DNA from: Gammaproteobacteria bacterium
GTDB taxonomy: Bacteria > Pseudomonadota > Gammaproteobacteria > JABDBA01
Direction: 5' to 3'
NCBI GenBank assembly: GCA_013288885.1
Contig: JABDBA010000001.1
Location: forward strand, 467,840-531,839
DNA length: 64,000 bases
A program made the position numbers and the translations under genes. Positions 44,662-64,000 of the stretch are shown piece after piece. The notes under the pieces were generated by a model. It was not told where the DNA came from. It made no database searches and saw only the letters and a program-made list of their open reading frames with translations. Position 1 is the first letter of the stretch; every line of letters begins with the position of its first letter.

Positions 44662-46635
44662 ATGGATTTCGAACAACAACAGTCACGATTGAAGTTATTG
44701 ATTGCACACGGCAAAAGCCAGGGTTTTTTAACCAATGCGGAAGTAGGCGATTTTCTGCTGGATGAAATCGACCCTGAAGCAACCGCTCAAATTGAAGAGA
44801 TTATCGGCATGTTGGGCGATATGGGAATCCCCGTTTATGAAGCCCCACCCGATATTGAAACCCTACTGTTATCAGGTGCTTTGCCCGAAGGTTCGCCGCC
44901 CGACGAAGAGGTGGTGGACGAAGCGGCGGCTGCCATGGCAGCGGCGAGCGCGGAACTAGGGCGCACCACCGACCCTGTGCGTATGTATATGCGCGAAATG
45001 GGCACGGTCGAATTGTTGACGCGTCAGGGCGAAATTGTATTGGCGATGCGTATTGAAGAAGGCATTCGCGAAGTGTTGGGCGCGCTGGCACAATACCCTG
45101 AAATTATCTCCGATGTGTTAAATGACTATGCGCGTTACGAACGTTCTGAAATGCGTTTGAGCGATATCATCAGTGGCTTTACCGATGCCGAAGCCAATGT
45201 TCCACCCGTAGCGGTGGCGGAAGTAGAAGAATTAGAAGCCGATGTGGCTGCGATTACTGAAATCCCTGATCTCAACCTCACCGAAGAAGTGGCGGTGGGT
45301 GAAGTCGGCGAAGTGGCGGATGAAACCTTCCCCGTTAAAGCATTGGCCGAAGAAGAGGAAGGCGAAGAAGGTGCAGGGGGTGAAGCAGCCGGTGATGCCG
45401 ATGACGCTGATATCGATGGCGGCCCAGACCCTGAATTGGCGAAACAACGTTTCACCGAACTACGCGATCTGTATCAAAAATATCGTGCCGCAGAAAAACG
45501 TTACGGCCGCAAACATAAATCGACCGACAAACAAAACAAAGCGATAGGCGATGCGTTTATTAAATTTAAATTAGTGCCGCGCCAACTCGATAAGCTCACC
45601 AAAAAAATGCGTAGTTTGCTCGATGCGGTGCGCGAGCAAGAACGTCATGCGATGCACTTGTGTGTGAACAAAGCAAAAATGCCGCGCAAACTTTTTATCG
45701 ATACCTTCCCTAAAAATGAAACCAATTTGGAATGGATCAATAAACACATTACGCCTGCTAAACCGTATTCGGCAGCGTTAAAAGAAATGAGCGTGCAAGT
45801 GATTCGCGCACAGAAAAAATTGGTCACGCTCGAAGAAGAAACCCACATGAATATTGCTGAAATCAGAGAGATTAATCGGCAAATGTCATTAGGTGAAGCG
45901 AAAGCGCGCCGTGCTAAAAAAGAAATGGTAGAAGCTAACTTGCGTTTAGTGATTTCTATCGCAAAAAAATATACTAATCGCGGGTTGCAATTTTTAGATC
46001 TCATTCAAGAAGGCAACATTGGCTTGATGAAAGCGGTCGATAAATTTGAATATCGCCGTGGCTATAAATTTTCAACTTATGCGACGTGGTGGATCCGCCA
46101 AGCGATTACGCGATCGATCGCCGATCAAGCGCGCACGATTCGTATCCCCGTGCATATGATCGAAACTATTAATAAACTCAATCGTATCTCGCGCCAAATT
46201 TTGCAAACCACCAGTGTGGAACCTTCGCCGGAAGAACTCGGTAAGTTTATGGGTTTGACGGAAGATAAAATTCGCAAAATTTTGAAGATCGCTAAAGAAC
46301 CGATTTCGACCGAAACCCCAATTGGTGACGACGAAGATTCCCACCTGGGCGATTTTATCGAAGACTCTGCGGCGCTATCACCCATTGACGCTGCGACCAT
46401 CGAAGGCTTGCGCGAAGCGGTGCAAGAAATTCTCTCGACATTAACGCCGCGTGAAGCTAAAGTATTGCGTATGCGATTTGGCATCGACATGAACACCGAC
46501 CACACACTAGAAGAAGTCGGCAAACAATTTGACGTCACCCGCGAACGTATACGGCAGATTGAAGCCAAAGCACTGCGCAAACTCCGCCACCCCAACCGCT
46601 CAGAGCCGTTGCGTAGTTTCTTAGAGCAGGAGTAG
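44662..46635 (+). CDS. rpoD: RNA polymerase sigma-70 factor RpoD
   Basis: Regions 1.1 to 4.2 are present, including [27 protein letters not shown] and an acidic spacer. Confidence 0.97.
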
Positions 46636-46658
46636 AATACCCCCTTTTGCCCCTCACA

Positions 46659-46735
<77 letters not shown>

Positions 46736-47211: not shown

Positions 47212-48417
47212 ATGTTAAAAAAATTCAAAGTTGAAAACTTTTATAGTATTGGCGATAAGCAAGAGATTTCAATGGAAATTACTTCCAAAGATGTTCTCGA
47301 TGATTCGGCGCGCCAAGTACAAAAAGGCAGTACTTCATTAAATCTAGTTGCATGTGTGATTGGTGCCAATGCTTCTGGTAAAACAACAATGTTGAAGGCA
47401 ATGAGTTTTCTTTTTTGGTTTATTAATAACGCATATACGAGTTTAAAAAAGGAAAGCAAGATCCCTGTTAATCAGCATGGGCTACATAAAAATGAGTCTA
47501 CAAAAATAGAAATAGATTTTTTTAATAATGATGTATTTTATATATACTCTATTGAGTTTAATAGGGAAGAAGTTTTAAAAGAATCATTAAAAAGAAAGAA
47601 TGAGCGTATTTCTCTTATTTTTGATTTAGATCGTAAAGCTAAAAATATTTTTATTAATACTCGTACTGACTTAAAAATAAATGAATCAGATGAAATAAGA
47701 TTTAAACAGCGTCGGAACGTGCCTTTACTTTCTAGTTTAATTGATACTGGTTATTTATCTGAAATATCTTTTTTTAAAAACTTTACTAGCAATGTAAATC
47801 AATTAGGCATGATGAATTACAATATCTTTTTTGATTTTATAAGTATTTCTAGAGAGTTACAAAAAAATGAAGTTTTATGTAAAAAGGTTCTTGGTTTTTC
47901 TAAAGAGATAGATTTGGGAATTTCTGATTTTAAGTTTTCTGAACGACAGTTTATAGAAAAGAACTCCATGAAAGAGGAAAAAATTTCAGTTCTGGAATGC
48001 GTTCATTCCTCTAAACAAAAAATTTTTAGCTTGCCTATTTTTGAAGAATCTAATGGAACTCAACAATATATTTTGATATTTTTAAAGATATCACCAATTT
48101 TATCAACTGGGGGAATAGTGGTTCTTGATGAATTGGAGCACAGCCTCCACCCATATGCTGCAAAAAAAATTATTGCACTTTTTGAAAATAAAGAAACAAA
48201 CCCATATAATGCCCAGCTTATTTTTTCAACTCATAGTCATTTATTGTTAAACGACAGAACGAAGACCCAGATATTTATTGCTGAGAAAAATAATGTTTTA
48301 TCTGAAACAGAAATTTATAGATTAGATAGTGTTGAAGGTATAAGGAATGATGAGAATTATTTTCAGAAATATACTGCTGGTGTTTACGGCGGTGTTCCCA
48401 ATGTTACTTGGTTGTAG
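47212..48417 (+). CDS. AAA-type ATPase (AbiLi / RloA-like)
   Basis: FKVENFYSIGD...GANASGKTT (Walker A)...VVLDELEHSLHP (Walker B)...FSTHS. Confidence 0.7.
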   Translation: MLKKFKVENFYSIGDKQEISMEITSKDVLDDSARQVQKGSTSLNLVACVIGANASGKTTMLKAMSFLFWFINNAYTSLKKESKIPVNQHGLHKNESTKIEIDFFNNDVFYIYSIEFNREEVLKESLKRKNERISLIFDLDRKAKNIFINTRTDLKINESDEIRFKQRRNVPLLSSLIDTGYLSEISFFKNFTSNVNQLGMMNYNIFFDFISISRELQKNEVLCKKVLGFSKEIDLGISDFKFSERQFIEKNSMKEEKISVLECVHSSKQKIFSLPIFEESNGTQQYILIFLKISPILSTGGIVVLDELEHSLHPYAAKKIIALFENKETNPYNAQLIFSTHSHLLLNDRTKTQIFIAEKNNVLSETEIYRLDSVEGIRNDENYFQKYTAGVYGGVPNVTWL

Positions 48418-48428
48418 TGGTTTATGAT

Positions 48429-49055
48429 ATGGGAAAAAATAAACGCAAAAGGAAAATATCAGTCCACGGTACCATGGAAGGTGAAAAGTCAGAAAAAAAC
48501 CTTTTGGAATATCTAAAAGAACATTATCTCGATCCAACCCTAACTTCTTTTATGGAAAACCCAAAACATGGAGGTACTCCAAATAGTCTTATTCTTTCTG
48601 CATTAAAATATATTGATCGAGATCTGGTTTTTGTATGGCTTGATGAGGATAAAGATTTAGATGAAGAAACTCTACGGGCTATTGCAAAATGTTGGAATAT
48701 TTCTCCGCAATTAATGGATTCATTCTTGTTATGCGCTTTACGAGACCTTCAGTCTACTTACAACATCCAGCGTAGGAAGCCCGTTTTAATAGTTTCTCAA
48801 CCTGTTTGCGTAGAATCATTGATACTGAAAACGTTGGGATATGCTCCTCCTTGTTCGAGGTATGAAGCTGATAAGAGAGATGAACAAATTAAGCAACTTA
48901 AAAGCGCTTTAGGCGGAGTATTTAAAAAAAACGATCATCGTGAATTCTACAGGCGGGTATTAAATAAACAATTACTTGAAGAAAGGCGGAAGAGCATTCC
49001 AGAGCTTGATCTGTTGATCTCAATGATTACAGCGCATCAAACAGCGAAAAATTAA
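48429..49055 (+). CDS. RloB-like protein (AbiLii-like)
   Basis: Basic N-terminus GKNKRKRK followed by MEGEKSEKNLLEYL, resembling the RloB CEGEKTEpnYF motif. It lies directly after the ATPase. Confidence 0.5.
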   Translation: MGKNKRKRKISVHGTMEGEKSEKNLLEYLKEHYLDPTLTSFMENPKHGGTPNSLILSALKYIDRDLVFVWLDEDKDLDEETLRAIAKCWNISPQLMDSFLLCALRDLQSTYNIQRRKPVLIVSQPVCVESLILKTLGYAPPCSRYEADKRDEQIKQLKSALGGVFKKNDHREFYRRVLNKQLLEERRKSIPELDLLISMITAHQTAKN

Positions 49056-49081
49056 TTTATTTTAAAGGTGTCTTTTGAGGC

Positions 49082-49129
49082 AACGGCGCCACGTTTGGGC
49101 AACAGTGCCACGTCTGGAATAAGGAATAA
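49082..49129. repeat. Half copy (plus degenerate partial) of the 60-bp palindromic element
   Basis: AACAGTGCCACGTCTGGAATAAGGAATAA (49101-49129), preceded by AACGGCGCCACGTTTGGG. Confidence 0.8.
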
Positions 49130-49172
49130 AACTGGCTAGATATAACGCCTTTGCTTTTGCTCGTTTCAGAAC

Positions 49173-49571
49173 TTACATATTAAGCACTTTAAGCCCGGGC
49201 ACTCTACCAAATTCGGTATGATTGCTTGTTAATACCGCGTATCCATGGGCTAATGCCGTTGCGGCGATGATGAGATCATGTGCGCCGATAAGTTGGCCTT
49301 GCTCAGCAAGGTGTGAATAAATTTCAGCATGGATGCGTGCAACTTCAGCCGTAAAATCAATGATGGGGATTTCATTGATGGCGGTTTCTACAAAAGCGGA
49401 ACGTTTTAATTGCCGTGCCCCGGTGTTAGCCCGCTGTACGCACATTAATAATTCACTGACAGTCACCACACTGATATAAACTTCTTCGTAGGATTTCCAT
49501 TGATTAAAGTCTAGTGGTTTAGCCTGTTTTTCGGAGTGGATTAAAACACAAGTATCTAGAATTAATCCCAT
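49173..49571 (-). CDS. vapC: PIN-domain toxin VapC
   Basis: MGLILDTCVLIH...AHDLIIAATALAHGYAVLTSN. Confidence 0.85.
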   Translation of the reverse strand: MGLILDTCVLIHSEKQAKPLDFNQWKSYEEVYISVVTVSELLMCVQRANTGARQLKRSAFVETAINEIPIIDFTAEVARIHAEIYSHLAEQGQLIGAHDLIIAATALAHGYAVLTSNHTEFGRVPGLKVLNM

Positions 49572-49843
49572 GGGTTACTCTCAGTGTTCATCTGCGCGCG
49601 TATCTGTTCTAAATCTTTTTTAAATATTTCTTCATCGCCGCTTTCCAGTGAGGGAAGGCGTTTAAAAAGTTTGTTGAGCTCACTTACCTTCAAAATCGAT
49701 TTTTTCGCAGTCGCAGGAACGATTTTCGCAATGACTTCTTTGCCGCGTTTTATGTCATAACTTTCACCTTGATAGTGAACTTTGTTTAAGATGTTGGAAA
49801 ATGTTCGACTGGCTTGGGTCGCACTGATGGTATGGCTAGACAT
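49562..49843 (-). CDS. Phd/YefM-type antitoxin
   Basis: ISATQASRTFSNILNKVHYQGESYDIKRGKEVIAKIVP. It overlaps vapC by 10 nt. Confidence 0.75.
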   Translation of the reverse strand: MSSHTISATQASRTFSNILNKVHYQGESYDIKRGKEVIAKIVPATAKKSILKVSELNKLFKRLPSLESGDEEIFKKDLEQIRAQMNTESNPWD

Positions 49844-49943
49844 ATAACCCCCCCCTATTGATAGATGTAAGTGAATTATAGCATAGAATTAGATAATATG
49901 AAAATCTGATTTTATGGGGAGAATCGGGGCGTAGTATGGGGAT

Positions 49944-49992
49944 CAGATCTTGATTTGTAACATTTGATTGAGATGCTACAAATCAAGATCTG
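49944..49992. repeat. 16-bp perfect inverted repeat CAGATCTTGATTTGTA-N17-TACAAATCAAGATCTG
   Basis: Read directly. It lies between the 3' end of the 50064 gene and the promoter region of the phd-vapC operon. Confidence 0.7.
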
Positions 49993-50063
49993 CTACCTTT
50001 AACTATGTACTATTTTATTATCTTATATGGCTAATATAACCACAAAAACAGCGATAACCTTGT

Positions 50064-51047
50064 TTAAAGAGCGCGGGGGGATGTATAGATAAGCTCATCA
50101 AGATTTCGTTTTACGACCTTGTCGGATGGGAGAAACAACAGTGCTTTTTCCCAAGCGGACTTAGCTTGGGCGTGATCGCCTGATTCATAAAAAGCGGTGC
50201 CTAAATTATTATAAGTTTCGTTTAAGTGGAAATGATCTGATGGGGGATAATTAGCAATAGCAGTTTCATATGCTTTAATAGCGCCTGGTAAATCACCCTG
50301 TTTTTTAAGATCGATACCTCGAATGTAATGAGCGCGTGGATGGTTAGGGTTTACTGCCAGACATTGGTTTAGAGCTTCTGCACTTTTTTTGTCATCGAAA
50401 AAACTGTAAACAATTGCTTCACGGCATAACACTTCAGCGCTTTCTCCAACAATAGTTTTTGCTTTGGCAATCCACGTTAAAGCTTCTGTTAGTTTTCCCT
50501 CTTCTGCCGCTACCATAGCTTCGGTGACTTCGCGTAATATTTTCTTACAACAAAATTTATATTTTTTTCCTGACGCGCAAGAGCAGGGAGCGTAGCTATC
50601 CGGTATAAAGCTTTTGATACTTTCTCGATCGCATTCATCCATAGGATGGTTGCTAGGAGTACAACCAATCGAAGCGGGAGAATAACATTCTTGGCCAAAG
50701 GATTGTTTTAACGGGGCTGTAAGTTCCTCAATGCAAGGTTCGGGTACGGCTTCGAAATCAATGAGCAGTTTTTTAGCTGAATTTTGCAACAAAGATTCAG
50801 ATGGATCTCCTTTGACCAAGATTACCCGGCGTGGCAAAGCGCCTGTTTGCGATCTGCCATGTCGCAGTAAATTATCAATTTGCGCTTGGTCAACTTCTGT
50901 TTCTATTATATCAAAGGCAAGGATATTGCCGCTGGGAAGCTCCATTAAGAAATAGATGTCCACTGGCAGGTCATTTATCTGGGTGTCGGTGCGAAATACT
51001 AACCAGGCTTCATTTTTAGCAAAATCTTTATAACGATAACGTTTCAT
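50064..51047 (-). CDS. SEC-C motif plus TPR-repeat protein
   Basis: CSCASGKKYKFCC (SEC-C metal-binding motif) followed by TPR-like helices (AHYIRGIDLKKQGDLPGAIKAYETAI...). I place the start at MKRYRYK. Confidence 0.6.
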   Translation of the reverse strand: MKRYRYKDFAKNEAWLVFRTDTQINDLPVDIYFLMELPSGNILAFDIIETEVDQAQIDNLLRHGRSQTGALPRRVILVKGDPSESLLQNSAKKLLIDFEAVPEPCIEELTAPLKQSFGQECYSPASIGCTPSNHPMDECDRESIKSFIPDSYAPCSCASGKKYKFCCKKILREVTEAMVAAEEGKLTEALTWIAKAKTIVGESAEVLCREAIVYSFFDDKKSAEALNQCLAVNPNHPRAHYIRGIDLKKQGDLPGAIKAYETAIANYPPSDHFHLNETYNNLGTAFYESGDHAQAKSAWEKALLFLPSDKVVKRNLDELIYTSPRAL

Positions 51048-51276
51048 AAGATGTTCCCATTTGAGTTTGAAAATCCACTTCCCGATAATGCTGTATATGC
51101 ACAATATAAATGCTATCCAAATGTATCCGGTAGCGCAATACATAACCCGCCGCACCAAAGCGAATAAATAAATCTCGATATTGTGGTAAATCTTCTATGG
51201 GTTTCCCTATAGCAGGATTTTCTTGGGCTATAAACTCCCTTAAGCGCTGATATAAACTTCTTCGTAGGATTTCCAT
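51028..51276 (-). pseudogene. 5'-truncated RelE/ParE-family toxin remnant with vapC-derived 5' end
   Basis: The C-terminal part AQENPAIGKPIEDL...YVLRYRIHLDSIYIVHIQHYRE is RelE/ParE-like. The first 35 nt are identical to vapC 49471-49505 but read in another frame. There is no antitoxin upstream. Confidence 0.5.
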
Positions 51277-51342
51277 TGATTCTTGATTGTTACCAATAAG
51301 ATAATGTATAGTAATTGGTAATATTTGGCAAGTGGAGTAGTT

Positions 51343-61467: not shown

Positions 61468-61527
61468 AACGGTGCCACGTCTGGAATAAGGAATAACGTT
61501 ATTCCTTATTCCAGACGTGGCACCGTT
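61468..61527. repeat. 60-bp palindromic element, copy 5 (perfect)
   Basis: Perfect palindrome. It contains the stop and last 6 codons of the 61506-62642 gene. Confidence 0.95.
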
Positions 61528-62642
61528 ATTATTGAAGGTGTATCTGTAACCGATGCTGCTGGCTGAGGAGCTGCTCGAAAAAAATTATATCTATTTGTGG
61601 AGTAGGTATTGAATATAGGGTTTAATATATTTGCATAATTCTTCCAGTGTTCATTCTCATGAAACGGGACTAGCCAGAGCATGGATGGAGTATCTTTTTC
61701 TCCAACCTTTCCCACATTTTTTAAGTTAACAATATTATTAAATCCTTCATTGAGGTGTTTAATAATTTGTATTGCGTAACAATGGTTGAAAGAATCAGCA
61801 GGAGGTAAATAAGGTAGCAACAGTGTTAACGTAGTGAGGTTAAAATTCCAATCATCAAGTTGTTTTTTATATTGCAGCAATACTTGATCTACAGAGTGGG
61901 GTTTCTCTTCTCCAGAATTATTTGATGATGTAGGCACATCAGAATCATCTAAGCTTGTTTCTTCTTCTGTGTCATTATCATCGCCATCTTCAAATTCAGG
62001 AATATCTATATCGGTGCTATGTAGCCCTTGGGATGATGTAGGCTCATCTAGTTGAGCCAATATAGTTGCTACATCATTTGTAGTTTCATTATTGGGAGCA
62101 GGATCTGTTTGTTTTTGTTCCGGCGGCGCCATATCTTGTATAGAATATCCTTGCGCAGAATATACATTTTTGATGGTATCTACAACCGCATTTACCATTT
62201 GTTGACGTAAGTCACTATCTATTTCATCCTTTTTTAATAACGCAAACATTCCTTTTTCTTTGTCTTTCCTGTCAGAAAAAGATTTTATTTTTAATTTTTT
62301 TTTAAATTCTTTAGGGATTATTTTATTGAGGAGTGTAGGTAGTCGAGGGGGCTGCTTTTCTTTTTTTGAAGATGAGGATCTATTTGAGTTTTTGCATAAT
62401 CGAGCTGTTGCTACTTCTTTAAACGAGCCATACGCCTTTGCACGATACTTTTTAATAACAATCGCAGGTCGAAAACTATGATGAGATTTCACCCCTGCTA
62501 TAAAAATATCCCATCTCCATTTGCAGTGTTCTTTTTCTTTATCCGCTGCTTTTTTCATGAAAATAGATACTTTGCTTTCCTCTAATATTCCAGTGATGCG
62601 TTTTTCTTCGGGCGCTATTTTTTGACGTTTCTTGGGCGGCAT
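61506..62642 (-). CDS. Hypothetical effector-like protein (378 aa) ending in TVPRLE
   Basis: Basic N-terminus and an acidic central tract. The C-terminal TVPRLE plus stop is encoded by the palindrome. SD AGGAGAGAG. Confidence 0.7.
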   Translation of the reverse strand: MPPKKRQKIAPEEKRITGILEESKVSIFMKKAADKEKEHCKWRWDIFIAGVKSHHSFRPAIVIKKYRAKAYGSFKEVATARLCKNSNRSSSSKKEKQPPRLPTLLNKIIPKEFKKKLKIKSFSDRKDKEKGMFALLKKDEIDSDLRQQMVNAVVDTIKNVYSAQGYSIQDMAPPEQKQTDPAPNNETTNDVATILAQLDEPTSSQGLHSTDIDIPEFEDGDDNDTEEETSLDDSDVPTSSNNSGEEKPHSVDQVLLQYKKQLDDWNFNLTTLTLLLPYLPPADSFNHCYAIQIIKHLNEGFNNIVNLKNVGKVGEKDTPSMLWLVPFHENEHWKNYANILNPIFNTYSTNRYNFFRAAPQPAASVTDTPSIITVPRLE

Positions 62643-62681
62643 AACTCTCTCCTAATAGATTAAGATCATTTGTTAAGGGTA

Positions 62682-62702
62682 ATTGTACCAGATTAACCTT
62701 AA
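62682..62702 (-). promoter_or_regulatory. Possible PmrA half-site promoter: CTTAAGGTT...TACAAT
   Basis: The reverse complement gives TTAA-N11-TACAAT with the same proximal half-site CTTAAGGTT as at 19849 and 30767. The distal half-site is degenerate (AATA). It lies 40 nt upstream of the ATG. Confidence 0.3.
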
Positions 62703-62738
62703 GAAAGCCTATTCGGTAGCTCAGGATATGAACGGATG

Positions 62739-62798
62739 AACGGTGCCACGTCTGGAATAAGGAATAACGTTATTCCTTATTCCAGACGTGGCACCGTT
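62739..62798. repeat. 60-bp palindromic element, copy 6 (perfect) with duplicated 13-bp end
   Basis: Perfect palindrome. GGCACCGTTATTA (62790-62802) is repeated at 62809-62821. Confidence 0.95.
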
Positions 62799-62818
62799 AT
62801 TATATTATGGCACCGTTA

Positions 62819-63733
62819 TTATCTAAGTTGCGGGGGTTTTGTTTGAGTTGTCCAGTAGAATTCTTTGCCATGATCTTGATCCTGAGGGTCTAATCGGACT
62901 AAGGCGGCGGCCGCTTCTGCGCTTGGGTTATTGGGGTTTTTAAAAAAAGGCAGTGGTGAAAAACCCCCATGAAATTCGGTAAAACCTGCTTTTTTTGCTA
63001 CGGGTTTTAAAATAGGAGGGGTTAAAAAATTCATCAATGCGGGTAACCGTTTTCCTACTTCAGGGTTGTGCAGTGTTACTAATTCTCCAAAGTTATTTAT
63101 CTCACCAGGAAATGGTTTCCCTTGTTTTTCGTTTTCTTCAATACTTGCGAGAATACCCGTTTCTTTGTTTAGCTTTGTAAATGGCGAATTGCCAGAAGAA
63201 AATAATTTTCCGCGCGGAGTCAGCCAGGTAAAATATTTTTTATAAAGCGCCCCAATTTGTGCGCCAGTAGAAAAATGTAAGAGGTTACGTTCGCATATAT
63301 ATTCAAAAAACTGGGGTGGAAATTCAGTTTCATGGATATTACCTTGTTGCGGAATGAAATTGCGACATTTATCTTCCGGCATATTTTCTGCGAGTGTTTG
63401 GGTAATATCGTCTAGATGTTTTTGGTGCAGTTCAACCGTATGTACAATTGGTGGAGTATCTGAAAAGGCAAAAATTCTAAAAATCATGCATCCTTGCCCG
63501 GCAGCTACATAAAGAACGCGGGCATTAGCATTATTAATAATCGCACTCAAAAATGCGTAATCTGCTGGCGTGGAAGGAGGTTGGCTCCAGCCCATTTTAT
63601 TGGCGGTGGTCATCCAATCTTGTGCGTTCGGATTCCAGCTGTTTTTCGATTTCAGTTTTGAGAACGGGCGATATGAAAACTTCGCCGTCATCATCACTCT
63701 AGCTAAATTCTTGATTGTATTTGGCATTGACAT
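62819..63733 (-). CDS. Hypothetical protein (304 aa), possibly methyltransferase-like
   Basis: ORF only. The weak Gly-rich stretch LYVAAGQGCMIF is not decisive. The stop lies in the duplicated palindrome end. Confidence 0.5.
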   Translation of the reverse strand: MSMPNTIKNLARVMMTAKFSYRPFSKLKSKNSWNPNAQDWMTTANKMGWSQPPSTPADYAFLSAIINNANARVLYVAAGQGCMIFRIFAFSDTPPIVHTVELHQKHLDDITQTLAENMPEDKCRNFIPQQGNIHETEFPPQFFEYICERNLLHFSTGAQIGALYKKYFTWLTPRGKLFSSGNSPFTKLNKETGILASIEENEKQGKPFPGEINNFGELVTLHNPEVGKRLPALMNFLTPPILKPVAKKAGFTEFHGGFSPLPFFKNPNNPSAEAAAALVRLDPQDQDHGKEFYWTTQTKPPQLR

Positions 63734-63939: not shown

Positions 63940-64000
63940 ATGCTAAGCGAAAAAGATCCATTAGGTGAATCAAACAAAATAGTTACCAAAGCAATGGCGG
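63940..64000 (+). CDS. 5' end of an unidentified ORF (runs off the window)
   Basis: GGAGAGAAAT then ATG, open to the end of the window (MLSEKDPLGESNKIVTKAMA). Confidence 0.3.
   Translation, partial: MLSEKDPLGESNKIVTKAMA

What the first reader, a model, noticed from the sequence alone, without database searches (positions are those of the whole stretch)
49082..62821. Family of 60-bp perfect palindromes placed at gene 3' ends, partitioning the island into cassettes
AACGGTGCCACGTCTGGAATAAGGAATAAC|GTTATTCCTTATTCCAGACGTGGCACCGTT occurs five times as a full copy (52621, 54848, 60363, 61468, 62739) and once as a half copy (49101). All lie within 14 kb and I saw none elsewhere in the window. Three copies are perfect, with 30-bp arms and no loop. 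Each arm contains a GGAATAA GGAATAA tandem. Each full copy overlaps a stop codon or lies within about 20 bp of one; the half copy sits about 45 bp from two convergent stops. The copies thus separate 1- to 3-gene units of mixed orientation. Copy 6 has a 13-bp terminal duplication, and the half copy has a degenerate partial neighbour, which suggests mobility or recombination. The elements could act as bidirectional terminators, RNase III substrates, cruciform recombination sites, or targets for IS110/IS1111-type insertion, as reported for palindromic repeats in Coxiella.
Basis: seen in the sequence. Interest (0 to 1): 0.85.

Follow-up and report, generated by a model that had tools for sequence, protein, structure and literature searches.

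The report
Perfect palindromes capping accessory gene units
A 60-base perfect palindrome, so far seen only in this little-sampled Coxiella-like bacterium, is repeated at the ends of gene units in one accessory region; it most likely acts as a strong RNA hairpin that closes each unit, and it might also mark mobile gene cassettes.

Summary
There are five full 60-bp palindromes, three of them perfect, and one half copy. All lie in the last 15 kb of the window, and none would be expected by chance. A seventh copy lies about 2.1 kb past the window end.

Each full copy sits from 22 nt inside a gene's 3' end to 20 nt after its stop codon. Two genes take their last six codons and stop (TVPRLE*) from the repeat. 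As RNA, each copy folds into a 28-31-bp hairpin of -44 to -55 kcal/mol.

The array lies in low-GC accessory DNA next to rpoD/tRNA-Met in a deep Coxiellaceae-like lineage. Relatives keep that junction but carry other genes there and have no such palindromes.

The repeat fails the defining tests I could run for MITE (no target duplications), REP (no GTAG), integron attC (no core sites, no bulged bases) and Xer/dif sites (wrong geometry, no similarity). The window encodes no transposase, integrase or RAYT. No public collection searched contains the repeat.

Best reading: a lineage-specific, orientation-independent 3'-end hairpin (terminator, insulator or RNase III site) spread by recombination rather than by transposition.

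A cassette-recombination system is not excluded, at about 0.2. Three features hint at DNA-level activity: array clustering, a half copy cut at the dyad axis, and junction duplications.

Interest is moderate. I rate it a new variant of a known kind.

The parts
49079..49097 (.). Degenerate first unit of a 19-bp tandem duplication spanning the left junction of the half copy
   Evidence: GGCAACGGCGCCACGTTTG vs GGCAACAGTGCCACGTCTG, 16 of 19 identical. One search finds the degenerate arm motif at 49085-49098.
49101..49130 (.). Half copy: left arm only, with similarity ending at the dyad axis (position 29/30)
   Evidence: 2 mismatches. One search shows no right arm. It lies between the convergent genes 48408-49055 (+) and 49173-49571 (-).
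52621..52680 (.). Full palindrome 1 (one G-to-A change in the right arm), 15 nt after the stop of gene 51325-52605 (+)
   Evidence: RNA hairpin -51.2 kcal/mol. It is the only copy flagged by the terminator scan.
54848..54907 (.). Full palindrome 2 (perfect). It supplies codons TVPRLE and the TAA stop of gene 52761-54869 (+)
   Evidence: -54.6 kcal/mol.
60363..60422 (.). Full palindrome 3 (3 changes near the outer ends), 6 nt after the stop of the 1136-aa LVIVD/OTU gene 56946-60356 (+). A consensus sigma-70 promoter follows at 60435-60462
   Evidence: (-44.2 kcal/mol).
61468..61527 (.). Full palindrome 4 (perfect). It supplies TVPRLE and the stop of gene 61506-62642 (-)
   Evidence: -55.3 kcal/mol.
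62739..62798 (.). Full palindrome 5 (perfect), 20 nt after the stop of gene 62819-63733 (-). Without the junction duplication the gap would be 1-2 nt
62728..62743 (.). 8-bp tandem duplication (ATGAACGG x2) spanning the left junction of palindrome 5
62789..62826 (.). 19-bp tandem duplication spanning the right junction of palindrome 5. The second unit holds the stop codon of gene 62819-63733
   Evidence: (family D3).
63940..64000 (+). Start of a 712-aa ORFan gene that runs off the window. Its stop lies 4 nt before a seventh palindrome at about 66083-66142
   Evidence: L002.
46659..46735 (+). tRNA-Met directly after rpoD: the left border of the variable low-GC region that holds the array
   Evidence: The same rpoD-tRNA-Met junction is followed by unrelated genes in relative L087.

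Best explanation
The repeats are a lineage-restricted family of perfect palindromes. The core is 60 bp, and about 72 bp if the A-rich and T-rich flanks are counted. They close transcription units in a low-GC accessory gene array next to rpoD/tRNA-Met in a Coxiellaceae-like intracellular bacterium.

Shown:
- Position, symmetry and near-identity of the copies.
- A predicted 28-31-bp RNA hairpin.
- TAA stops in two of three reading frames on either strand.
- Absence of target duplications.

Inferred:
- When transcribed from either side, the element forms the hairpin right at or after the stop codon. It then acts as an orientation-independent 3'-end module.
- That module would stop or impede read-through into the next unit, each of which has its own promoter 50-165 nt further on. 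It would also define or protect the mRNA 3' end, or offer an RNase III cut site.
- It guarantees translational stop for genes that run into it.
- It was propagated together with, or between, accessory genes by DNA recombination at the palindrome (homologous, hairpin-mediated or cruciform-mediated). Cut-and-paste transposition is the less likely route.
For: - Hairpin energies are -44 to -55 kcal/mol, z -7.5 to -13. DNA hairpins are -24 to -34 kcal/mol.
- All five full copies lie between co-directional genes, -22 to +20 nt from the upstream stop and 49-165 nt from the next start. The probability is 0.0025 even if only intergenic positions are allowed. Copy 7 lies 4 nt after a stop.
- Two unrelated ORFan genes on opposite strands end in the arm with the same TVPRLE*.
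- Frames 2 and 3 of the arm hold TAA, and the palindrome reads the same on both strands.
- In the sense direction the tails are GUUUAUUUU, GUUAUUCUU and GUUUAUUUC for copies 1-3. Eight of 11 outer flanks extend the dyad as A-rich/T-rich (AAyAAT...ATTnTT), the layout of bidirectional terminators.
- A 12/12 consensus promoter starts 13 nt after copy 3.
- Against transposition and for recombination: no target duplication beyond random expectation. All 6-7 known copies lie in one 17-kb array and none in the other 49 kb. The half copy is cut at the dyad axis, and three junction-spanning tandem duplications exist.
- Coxiella QMITE2 shows that stable hairpin repeats in 3' UTRs that overlap gene C-termini occur in this order (PMC5896051).
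Against: - There are no expression data.
- Only one of five copies passes a simple terminator scan. Copies 4 and 5 lack a U-rich tail in the sense direction.
- A 30-bp stem is far longer than known intrinsic terminators.
- In two copies the stop codon lies inside the stem. A terminating ribosome would delay folding.
- Terminator-like sites are not enriched anywhere in this genome region, so it is unclear that this organism relies on hairpin terminators at all.
- Other low-GC ORFan genes in the window (19925-30708) have no such repeat.
- Clustering in one array fits a cassette-recombination system at least as well.
- The rest of the genome could not be examined.
Confidence: 0.5

Rival explanations
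1. The palindromes are recombination sites of a gene-cassette system, analogous to integron attC arrays or Acinetobacter pdif modules. A recombinase encoded elsewhere would cross over at the symmetric centre and insert, excise or invert 1-3-gene units. Full symmetry of the site would allow either orientation.
For: - All known copies form one array at a tRNA-linked hotspot.
- Units have mixed orientation.
- The copies are near-identical while the genes between them are unrelated ORFans.
- TA and defence genes lie in the same region, as in chromosomal integrons.
- There are no target duplications.
- The half copy ends at the dyad axis.
- Relatives have other content at the same junction.
- Legionellales use dif sites with perfectly symmetric arms (PMC9765430).
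Against: - No recombinase is encoded in 64 kb.
- The attC core sites RYYYAAC/GTTRRRY and extrahelical bases are absent.
- The GGAATAA inverted repeats are 2 or 16 bp apart, not 6-8 bp.
- There is no similarity to the L. pneumophila dif/LME-1 att site: 10 of 22 matches, the same as shuffles.
- Each palindrome has exactly one 3' end and one 5' side. That is what a 3'-end element predicts and is not required of a cassette site.
- No alternative junctions are visible in the one other assembly.
Confidence: 0.2
2. A classical non-autonomous transposon (MITE) made only of two abutted 30-bp terminal inverted repeats, mobilised by a full-length IS elsewhere in the genome or in the donor of the island. 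Insertions survive only just downstream of genes.
For: - Small and non-coding, with 30-bp perfect inverted ends and multiple near-identical copies.
- It overlaps gene C-termini, as Coxiella QMITE2 does.
- Partial end copies lie next to two elements.
Against: - None of five young copies (95-100% identical) has a target-site duplication.
- The window has no transposase and no IS with these ends.
- The copies are clustered rather than dispersed.
- No empty-site paralogue or related element was found in any collection searched.
Confidence: 0.12
3. A protein-binding site at the DNA level, with four GGAATAA heptamers and two GGTGCCACGTCTGG boxes. It could be an operator for the two LuxR-type regulators of the island, a nucleoid or insulator site, or a DNA-uptake-type signal.
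For: - The repeat has a symmetric internal architecture.
- Two GerE/LuxR regulators are encoded in the array.
- A type IV pilus cluster is present in the window.
- CGTCTG resembles the core of the Neisseria uptake sequence (from memory).
Against: - The sites lie at 3' ends, 49-165 nt from the next start, rather than over promoters.
- A 60-bp perfect dyad is much longer than LuxR boxes.
- Uptake sequences are spread over core genes at about one per kb, whereas 49 kb of this window has none.
Confidence: 0.05

Closest known systems
Coxiella burnetii QMITE2 (Wachter et al. 2018, PMC5896051)
   Same: Same bacterial order. It is a non-coding repeat found mainly in 3' UTRs and intergenic DNA. It overlaps the C-terminal codons of several genes and can donate C-terminal residues. 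It forms very stable hairpins (-67 to -113 kcal/mol) that have been proposed as RNase III substrates.
   Different: QMITE2 is 150-190 bp, has 7-11-nt direct repeats at each copy, and contains a GTAG REP that IS1111 targets. It occurs 60-80 times dispersed over the genome. The present element is 60 bp and a perfect loop-less palindrome. It has no direct repeats and no GTAG, shows no sequence similarity to QMITE2, and is so far seen only in one array.
REP/BIME and REPIN elements with RAYT transposases (enterobacteria, Pseudomonas)
   Same: Extragenic palindromes downstream of genes. They stabilise mRNA 3' ends, can terminate transcription, and serve as targets of IS110-type elements (established knowledge, from memory).
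   Different: REPs are 20-40-nt imperfect palindromes with a conserved GTAG/GGAG head. They occur hundreds of times and are linked to a RAYT gene. None of these features is seen here.
Neisseria Correia elements (CREE/NEMIS)
   Same: Short inverted-repeat elements near genes. Their transcripts fold into long hairpins cut by RNase III, and they can act as terminators or supply promoters (reviewed in PMC10969869 and from memory).
   Different: Correia elements are 100-155 bp with 26-bp inverted ends, a TA target duplication and an IHF site. They are dispersed in hundreds of copies.
Integron attC arrays / CALINs and Acinetobacter pdif modules
   Same: Arrays of short symmetric sites that bound small gene units, often including toxin-antitoxin genes. 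Chromosomal integrons have highly homogeneous sites, and ORFs may end inside the site.
   Different: attC sites are imperfect, with extrahelical bases and RYYYAAC/GTTRRRY cores, and their cassettes are co-oriented. pdif sites are 28 bp with an 11-6-11 layout. The present site is a perfect 60-bp dyad with neither layout, and no recombinase is nearby.
Bidirectional intrinsic terminators
   Same: A hairpin flanked by an A-rich tract upstream and a T-rich tract downstream, placed between genes just after stop codons.
   Different: The stem is 28-31 bp instead of 5-15 bp. The U-tracts are interrupted or absent in some copies. The sequence is repeated almost identically at unrelated genes.

Membership tests
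MITE (DDE-transposase-derived) | Terminal inverted repeats, small size, no coding capacity | tested here: met
   The two 30-nt arms are perfect inverted repeats and the element is 60 bp.
MITE (DDE-transposase-derived) | Target-site duplication flanking each copy | tested here: not met
   The best shared flank words are 5-6 nt, do not abut the element, and are as frequent at 2000 random positions.
MITE (DDE-transposase-derived) | Parent IS with matching ends; copies dispersed in the genome | not testable with these tools
   No transposase is encoded in the window. The rest of the source genome is not readable. All known copies are clustered in 17 kb.
REP / REPIN-RAYT | 20-40-nt imperfect palindrome headed by a conserved GTAG/GGAG tetranucleotide | tested here: not met
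   The arm AACGGTGCCACGTCTGGAATAAGGAATAAC contains no GTAG or CTAC, and the arm is not itself a hairpin.
REP / REPIN-RAYT | Associated RAYT (Y1 HUH) gene | tested here: inconclusive
   None among the ORFs of the 64-kb window. The rest of the genome was not examined.
Integron attC site / CALIN | R''/R' core sites RYYYAAC ... GTTRRRY | tested here: not met
   The left junctions read CAAT|AAC, CAGT|AAC, AGGC|ATC, GGGC|AAC and GATG|AAC. The right ends read GTTTATT, GTTATTC and GTTATTA.
Integron attC site / CALIN | Imperfect stem with extrahelical bases that give strand selectivity | tested here: not met
   Three copies are perfect palindromes with no bulge or spacer.
Integron attC site / CALIN | Co-oriented, mostly promoterless single-ORF cassettes; intI nearby | tested here: not met
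   Units hold 1-3 genes in mixed orientation, and one has a consensus promoter. No integrase domain is found in the window.
Xer dif / pdif module site, including Legionellales dif/XerL | A site of about 28-30 bp: two 10-12-bp arms around a 6-8-bp central region, with similarity to known dif sites | tested here: not met
   The GGAATAA inverted repeats are separated by 2 or 16 bp. The L. pneumophila att/dif 22-mer (PMC5071653) matches 10 of 22, as shuffles do.
Intrinsic (Rho-independent) terminator | Stable G+C-containing hairpin just downstream of a stop codon | tested here: met
   Energies are -44 to -55 kcal/mol, positions -22 to +20 nt from stops. The stem is unusually long.
Intrinsic (Rho-independent) terminator | Uninterrupted U-rich tract directly after the stem | tested here: inconclusive
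   Copies 1-3 have 5-7 U in the first 9 nt in the sense direction, and copies 4 and 5 do not. Only copy 1 passes the scan.
Coxiella QMITE2 | 150-190 bp, 7-11-nt direct repeats, internal GTAG REP, IS1111 insertions | tested here: not met
   Size, direct repeats and GTAG are all absent. Features taken from PMC5896051.

The most novel reading that the evidence does not exclude
The array is a previously undescribed gene-capture system of an intracellular bacterium. A fully symmetric 60-bp site, cut at its dyad centre by a recombinase or hairpin nuclease encoded elsewhere, would let effector-like and defence genes be inserted, inverted and exchanged in either orientation at the rpoD/tRNA-Met hotspot. 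The same sequence would double as a built-in stop codon and terminator for each captured unit.
Probability: 0.15. Interest if true: 0.8.

Novelty: new variant of a known kind. Interest (0 to 1): 0.4.

Why it matters
Small palindromic repeats at gene ends are common. This one combines unusual traits:
- It is a loop-less perfect 60-bp dyad, which many bacteria cannot maintain.
- It has no transposition scars.
- It has stops in two frames on both strands.
- All known copies lie in a single array of ORFan, effector-like genes (one an OTU deubiquitinase homologue) and defence genes at a conserved hotspot.

If the array is dynamic, it would show how a poorly sampled group of intracellular bacteria assembles and insulates newly acquired host-targeting genes. 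If it is static, it is a compact natural bidirectional stop module: a translation stop plus an RNA hairpin.

Tried and rejected
1. Census of the element elsewhere. An exact 20-mer and a gapped two-arm pattern gave 0 hits in GTDB species genomes, JGI metagenomes and IMG/VR. blastn gave 0 hits in PLSDB plasmids and GenBank phages. The negative result for genomes says nothing about the source genome. Copy 7, which lies outside the window, was also not found, so that genome is absent from the collection or masked.
2. Protein-level census. The read-through peptide NGATSGIRNNVIPYSRRGTV shares no words with any of about 15 billion proteins. This is a weak negative.
3. Homologues of a palindrome-terminated gene, to compare C-termini. 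The 702-aa protein is an ORFan that hits only itself.
4. Relatives. GTDB RpoD hits are at most about 62-70% identical and share no synteny beyond rpoD. Logan contigs with 72-76% RpoD identity keep rpoD-tRNA-Met but have no palindromes.
5. Rfam gave only sub-threshold hits to microRNA hairpin models and no real family.
6. Legionellales dif hypothesis. The papers give only the L. pneumophila 22-mer, which shows no similarity. A scan of Coxiella plasmid QpH1 for the plasmid dif site gave no clear candidate.
7. The idea that the element is an insert into an AATAACGTTATT target that it recreates at its centre. No empty target exists in the window, so this remains unsupported.
8. Outward promoter from the element end (GTGGCA as a -35 box). 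A suitable -10 is found only at copy 4, so it is not general.
9. Conserved sequence next to the copies on the 5' side or 3' side. Beyond about 6-8 nt there is none.
10. Sequencing adapter or assembly artefact. Rejected, because genes end inside the repeat and a second assembly agrees.


Full report

Yes. The 30-nt arm AACGGTGCCACGTCTGGAATAAGGAATAAC matches 11 times with up to 3 mismatches, against none expected in 100 dinucleotide-preserving shuffles. The matches pair up into five palindromes with no spacer:
- 52621-52680, with one mismatch;
- 54848-54907, 61468-61527 and 62739-62798, all perfect;
- 60363-60422, with three mismatches near the outer ends.

There is also a lone left arm at 49101-49130. 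Sub-motif searches find no further partial copies anywhere in the 64 kb.

An independent short-read assembly (Logan, run SRR8430286) is 100% identical to the window. Its contigs end at the palindrome centres, one contig per inter-palindrome unit. One of these contigs, L002, runs 2.1 kb beyond the window. It ends in another copy at about 66083-66142, 4 nt after the stop of a 712-aa gene that starts at 63940. The array therefore continues past the window, and the repeats are not an artefact.

**2. Anatomy.**

- As RNA, each full copy folds into a 28-31-bp stem with a 4-nt ACGU loop. Energies are -44 to -55 kcal/mol, z -7.5 to -13. As single-stranded DNA the energies are -24 to -34 kcal/mol.
- The arm is built as [GGTGCCACGTCTGG][GGAATAA][GGAATAA]. 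It has TAA in two of three frames. Because the element is a palindrome, this holds for entry from either side. The third frame is open: NGATSGIRNNVIPYSRRGTV.
- Two unrelated genes on opposite strands, 52761-54869 (+) and 61506-62642 (-), run into the arm in the same frame. Both end ...TVPRLE*.
- The other copies start 6, 15 and 20 nt after a stop, and copy 7 starts 4 nt after one.
- All five full copies lie between co-directional genes, 49-165 nt upstream of the next start. If 60-bp elements were dropped at random on positions that disturb at most 22 nt of a gene, 30% would fall that close to a 3' end. Five of five gives about 0.0025. The window of -22 to +21 nt was chosen after seeing the data.
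- Eight of eleven outer flanks prolong the dyad as A-rich/T-rich (AAyAAT...ATTnTT).
- In the sense direction, copies 1-3 are followed by U-rich tails. Copies 4 and 5 are not. A simple terminator scan flags only copy 1.
- A 12/12 consensus sigma-70 promoter starts 13 nt after copy 3.

**3. Scars.**

No copy has a target-site duplication. The best flank matches are 5-6 nt, do not abut the element, and are as common at random positions.

Three junction-spanning tandem duplications exist:
- 19 bp at the left end of the half copy (49079-49116, 16 of 19 identical);
- 19 bp at the right end of copy 5 (62789-62826, 17 of 19 identical);
- 8 bp at the left end of copy 5 (62728-62743).

Similarity in the half copy stops at position 29/30, which is the dyad axis. 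These are the footprints expected of hairpin or cruciform-related slippage, breakage or crossover at the DNA level. This is inference from one to three cases.

**4. Context.**

The array begins after rpoD (44662-46635) and tRNA-Met (46659-46735). G+C is 0.34-0.40 in the units against 0.45 in the core stretch 28-46.6 kb.

The region encodes:
- an AbiLi-type ATPase with a partner;
- a PIN/Phd pair, a ParE remnant and a TPR protein;
- two LuxR-type regulators;
- a 1136-aa LVIVD protein whose C-terminal part matches the Wolbachia OTU deubiquitinase wMelOTU (E 8e-10);
- a DUF1801 protein and several ORFans.

No ORF scanned in the window has a transposase, integrase or RAYT domain.

All window proteins tested are singletons at 90% identity among about 15 billion proteins. 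The nearest RpoD sequences are 72-76% identical, from unnamed Logan contigs. The nearest named ones are Rickettsiella and Aquirickettsiella at 65-67%. The host is therefore a deep, poorly sampled Coxiellaceae-like lineage. Ankyrin and OTU proteins fit an intracellular lifestyle.

Relatives keep icd-clpA-infA-rpoD-tRNA-Met. Downstream they carry different genes, such as Abi_C and DUF1016, or their contigs break there. None has a long palindrome or the motif. The junction is thus a hotspot, and the repeat is specific to this genome as far as can be seen.

**5. Searches elsewhere.**

The repeat has no exact or gapped match in GTDB species genomes, JGI metagenomes or IMG/VR. It has no blastn match in plasmids or phages. 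The genome scan did not even return copy 7 of the source organism, so that genome is not readable there.

No predicted protein anywhere contains the read-through peptide. The 702-aa palindrome-terminated protein has no homologue. Rfam gives only sub-threshold microRNA-hairpin hits.

**6. What it most likely is.**

Confidence is 0.5, with the hairpin function inferred. The position at stops, the orientation-independence, the stops in two frames, the very stable hairpin, the A/T-rich flanks and the promoters that follow all fit one role. The element looks like a 3'-end module that closes each transcription unit. It would act by termination or blockage of read-through, by 3'-end protection, or by RNase III processing.

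This is how REP/BIME, Correia and Coxiella QMITE2 elements are thought to act (PMC5896051; PMC10969869; otherwise from memory). Three points argue that it spread by recombination with or between accessory genes rather than by DDE transposition: the lack of target duplications, the single-array distribution, and the dyad-axis truncation.

Weak points:
- There are no expression data.
- The U-tracts are imperfect.
- The stem is far longer than any known terminator.
- Terminator-like sites are not enriched in this genome region at all.

**7. Rivals.**

- *A cassette recombination system (0.2).* It explains the array, the mixed orientation, the ORFan content and the half site. But no recombinase is nearby, the attC cores and bulges are absent, and the heptamer spacing (2 or 16 bp) does not fit a tyrosine-recombinase core. 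The site also does not resemble the L. pneumophila dif/LME-1 att site (10 of 22, as shuffles).
- *A classical MITE (0.12).* It fails the target-duplication test.
- *A protein-binding or uptake-type signal (0.05).* It fits neither the position nor the distribution.

**8. Comparison and novelty.**

It works like REP/QMITE2/Correia-type 3'-end hairpin repeats. By the defining features I could test, it is not a member of the MITE, REP, attC or dif families (see the membership table). I rate it a new variant of a known kind, of moderate interest (0.4). The most novel reading not excluded is an orientation-free gene-capture array for effector-like genes. I give that 0.15; it would be of high interest if read-level or comparative data showed cassette movement.

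Noticed in passing
window 49471-49505 and 51247-51281: A perfect 35-bp direct repeat 1776 bp apart. One copy lies inside the PIN toxin gene. The other forms the start of a 5'-truncated ParE-like ORF (51028-51276). The segment between them holds the Phd antitoxin and a TPR/SEC-C protein. The repeat explains two breaks in the Logan contigs and looks like a scar of rearrangement among toxin-antitoxin modules.
   Followed up: partly
window 47212-49055: An AbiLi-type AAA ATPase (PADLOC 2e-70) overlaps a 215-aa partner that has no family hit. This is probably an AbiL-like two-gene defence system, directly after tRNA-Met.
   Followed up: partly
window 56946-60356: A 1136-aa protein with N-terminal LVIVD beta-propeller repeats, a Ser-rich region encoded by 45-bp tandem repeats (58266-58400), and a C-terminal OTU deubiquitinase domain similar to Wolbachia wMelOTU (E 8e-10). 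It looks like a host-targeting effector. Two LuxR-type regulators precede it in the same unit.
   Followed up: partly
window 60435-60462: A perfect consensus sigma-70 promoter (TTGACA-16-TATAAT) 13 nt after palindrome 3 and 39 nt before the 154-aa gene.
   Followed up: no
window 49939-49997 and 54992-55064: Two other imperfect inverted repeats: 25-nt arms at 88% with a 9-nt loop, and 31-nt arms at 77% with an 11-nt loop. The first lies just upstream of the Phd/PIN operon and the second just upstream of the first LuxR gene. They are possible operators and are unrelated to the 60-bp family.
   Followed up: no
window 44662-46735; loci L087, L088-L094: The rpoD-tRNA-Met junction is conserved in relatives (RpoD 72-76% identical). 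Different genes follow it in each, and several Logan contigs end within 80-900 bp after rpoD. This suggests a strain-variable integration hotspot across the lineage.
   Followed up: partly
window 19925-30708 and 11984-14383: Three very large ORFans (1502, 1084 and 922 aa) with no Pfam hit, and a 799-aa ankyrin-repeat protein with 90-bp internal tandem repeats (12683-13132). All are low-GC and effector-like, and none has the palindrome at its 3' end.
   Followed up: no
whole window: Every protein tested is a singleton at 90% identity among about 15 billion sequences. The source genome (largest contig 664,623 bp; NCBI and IMG) could not be reached by any DNA scan. The lineage is very sparsely sampled.
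   Followed up: partly
window 14490-14945 and 19083-19478: More toxin-antitoxin-type genes lie outside the array: a PemK/MazF-like toxin and a nucleotidyltransferase substrate-binding (HEPN-like) protein.
   Followed up: no
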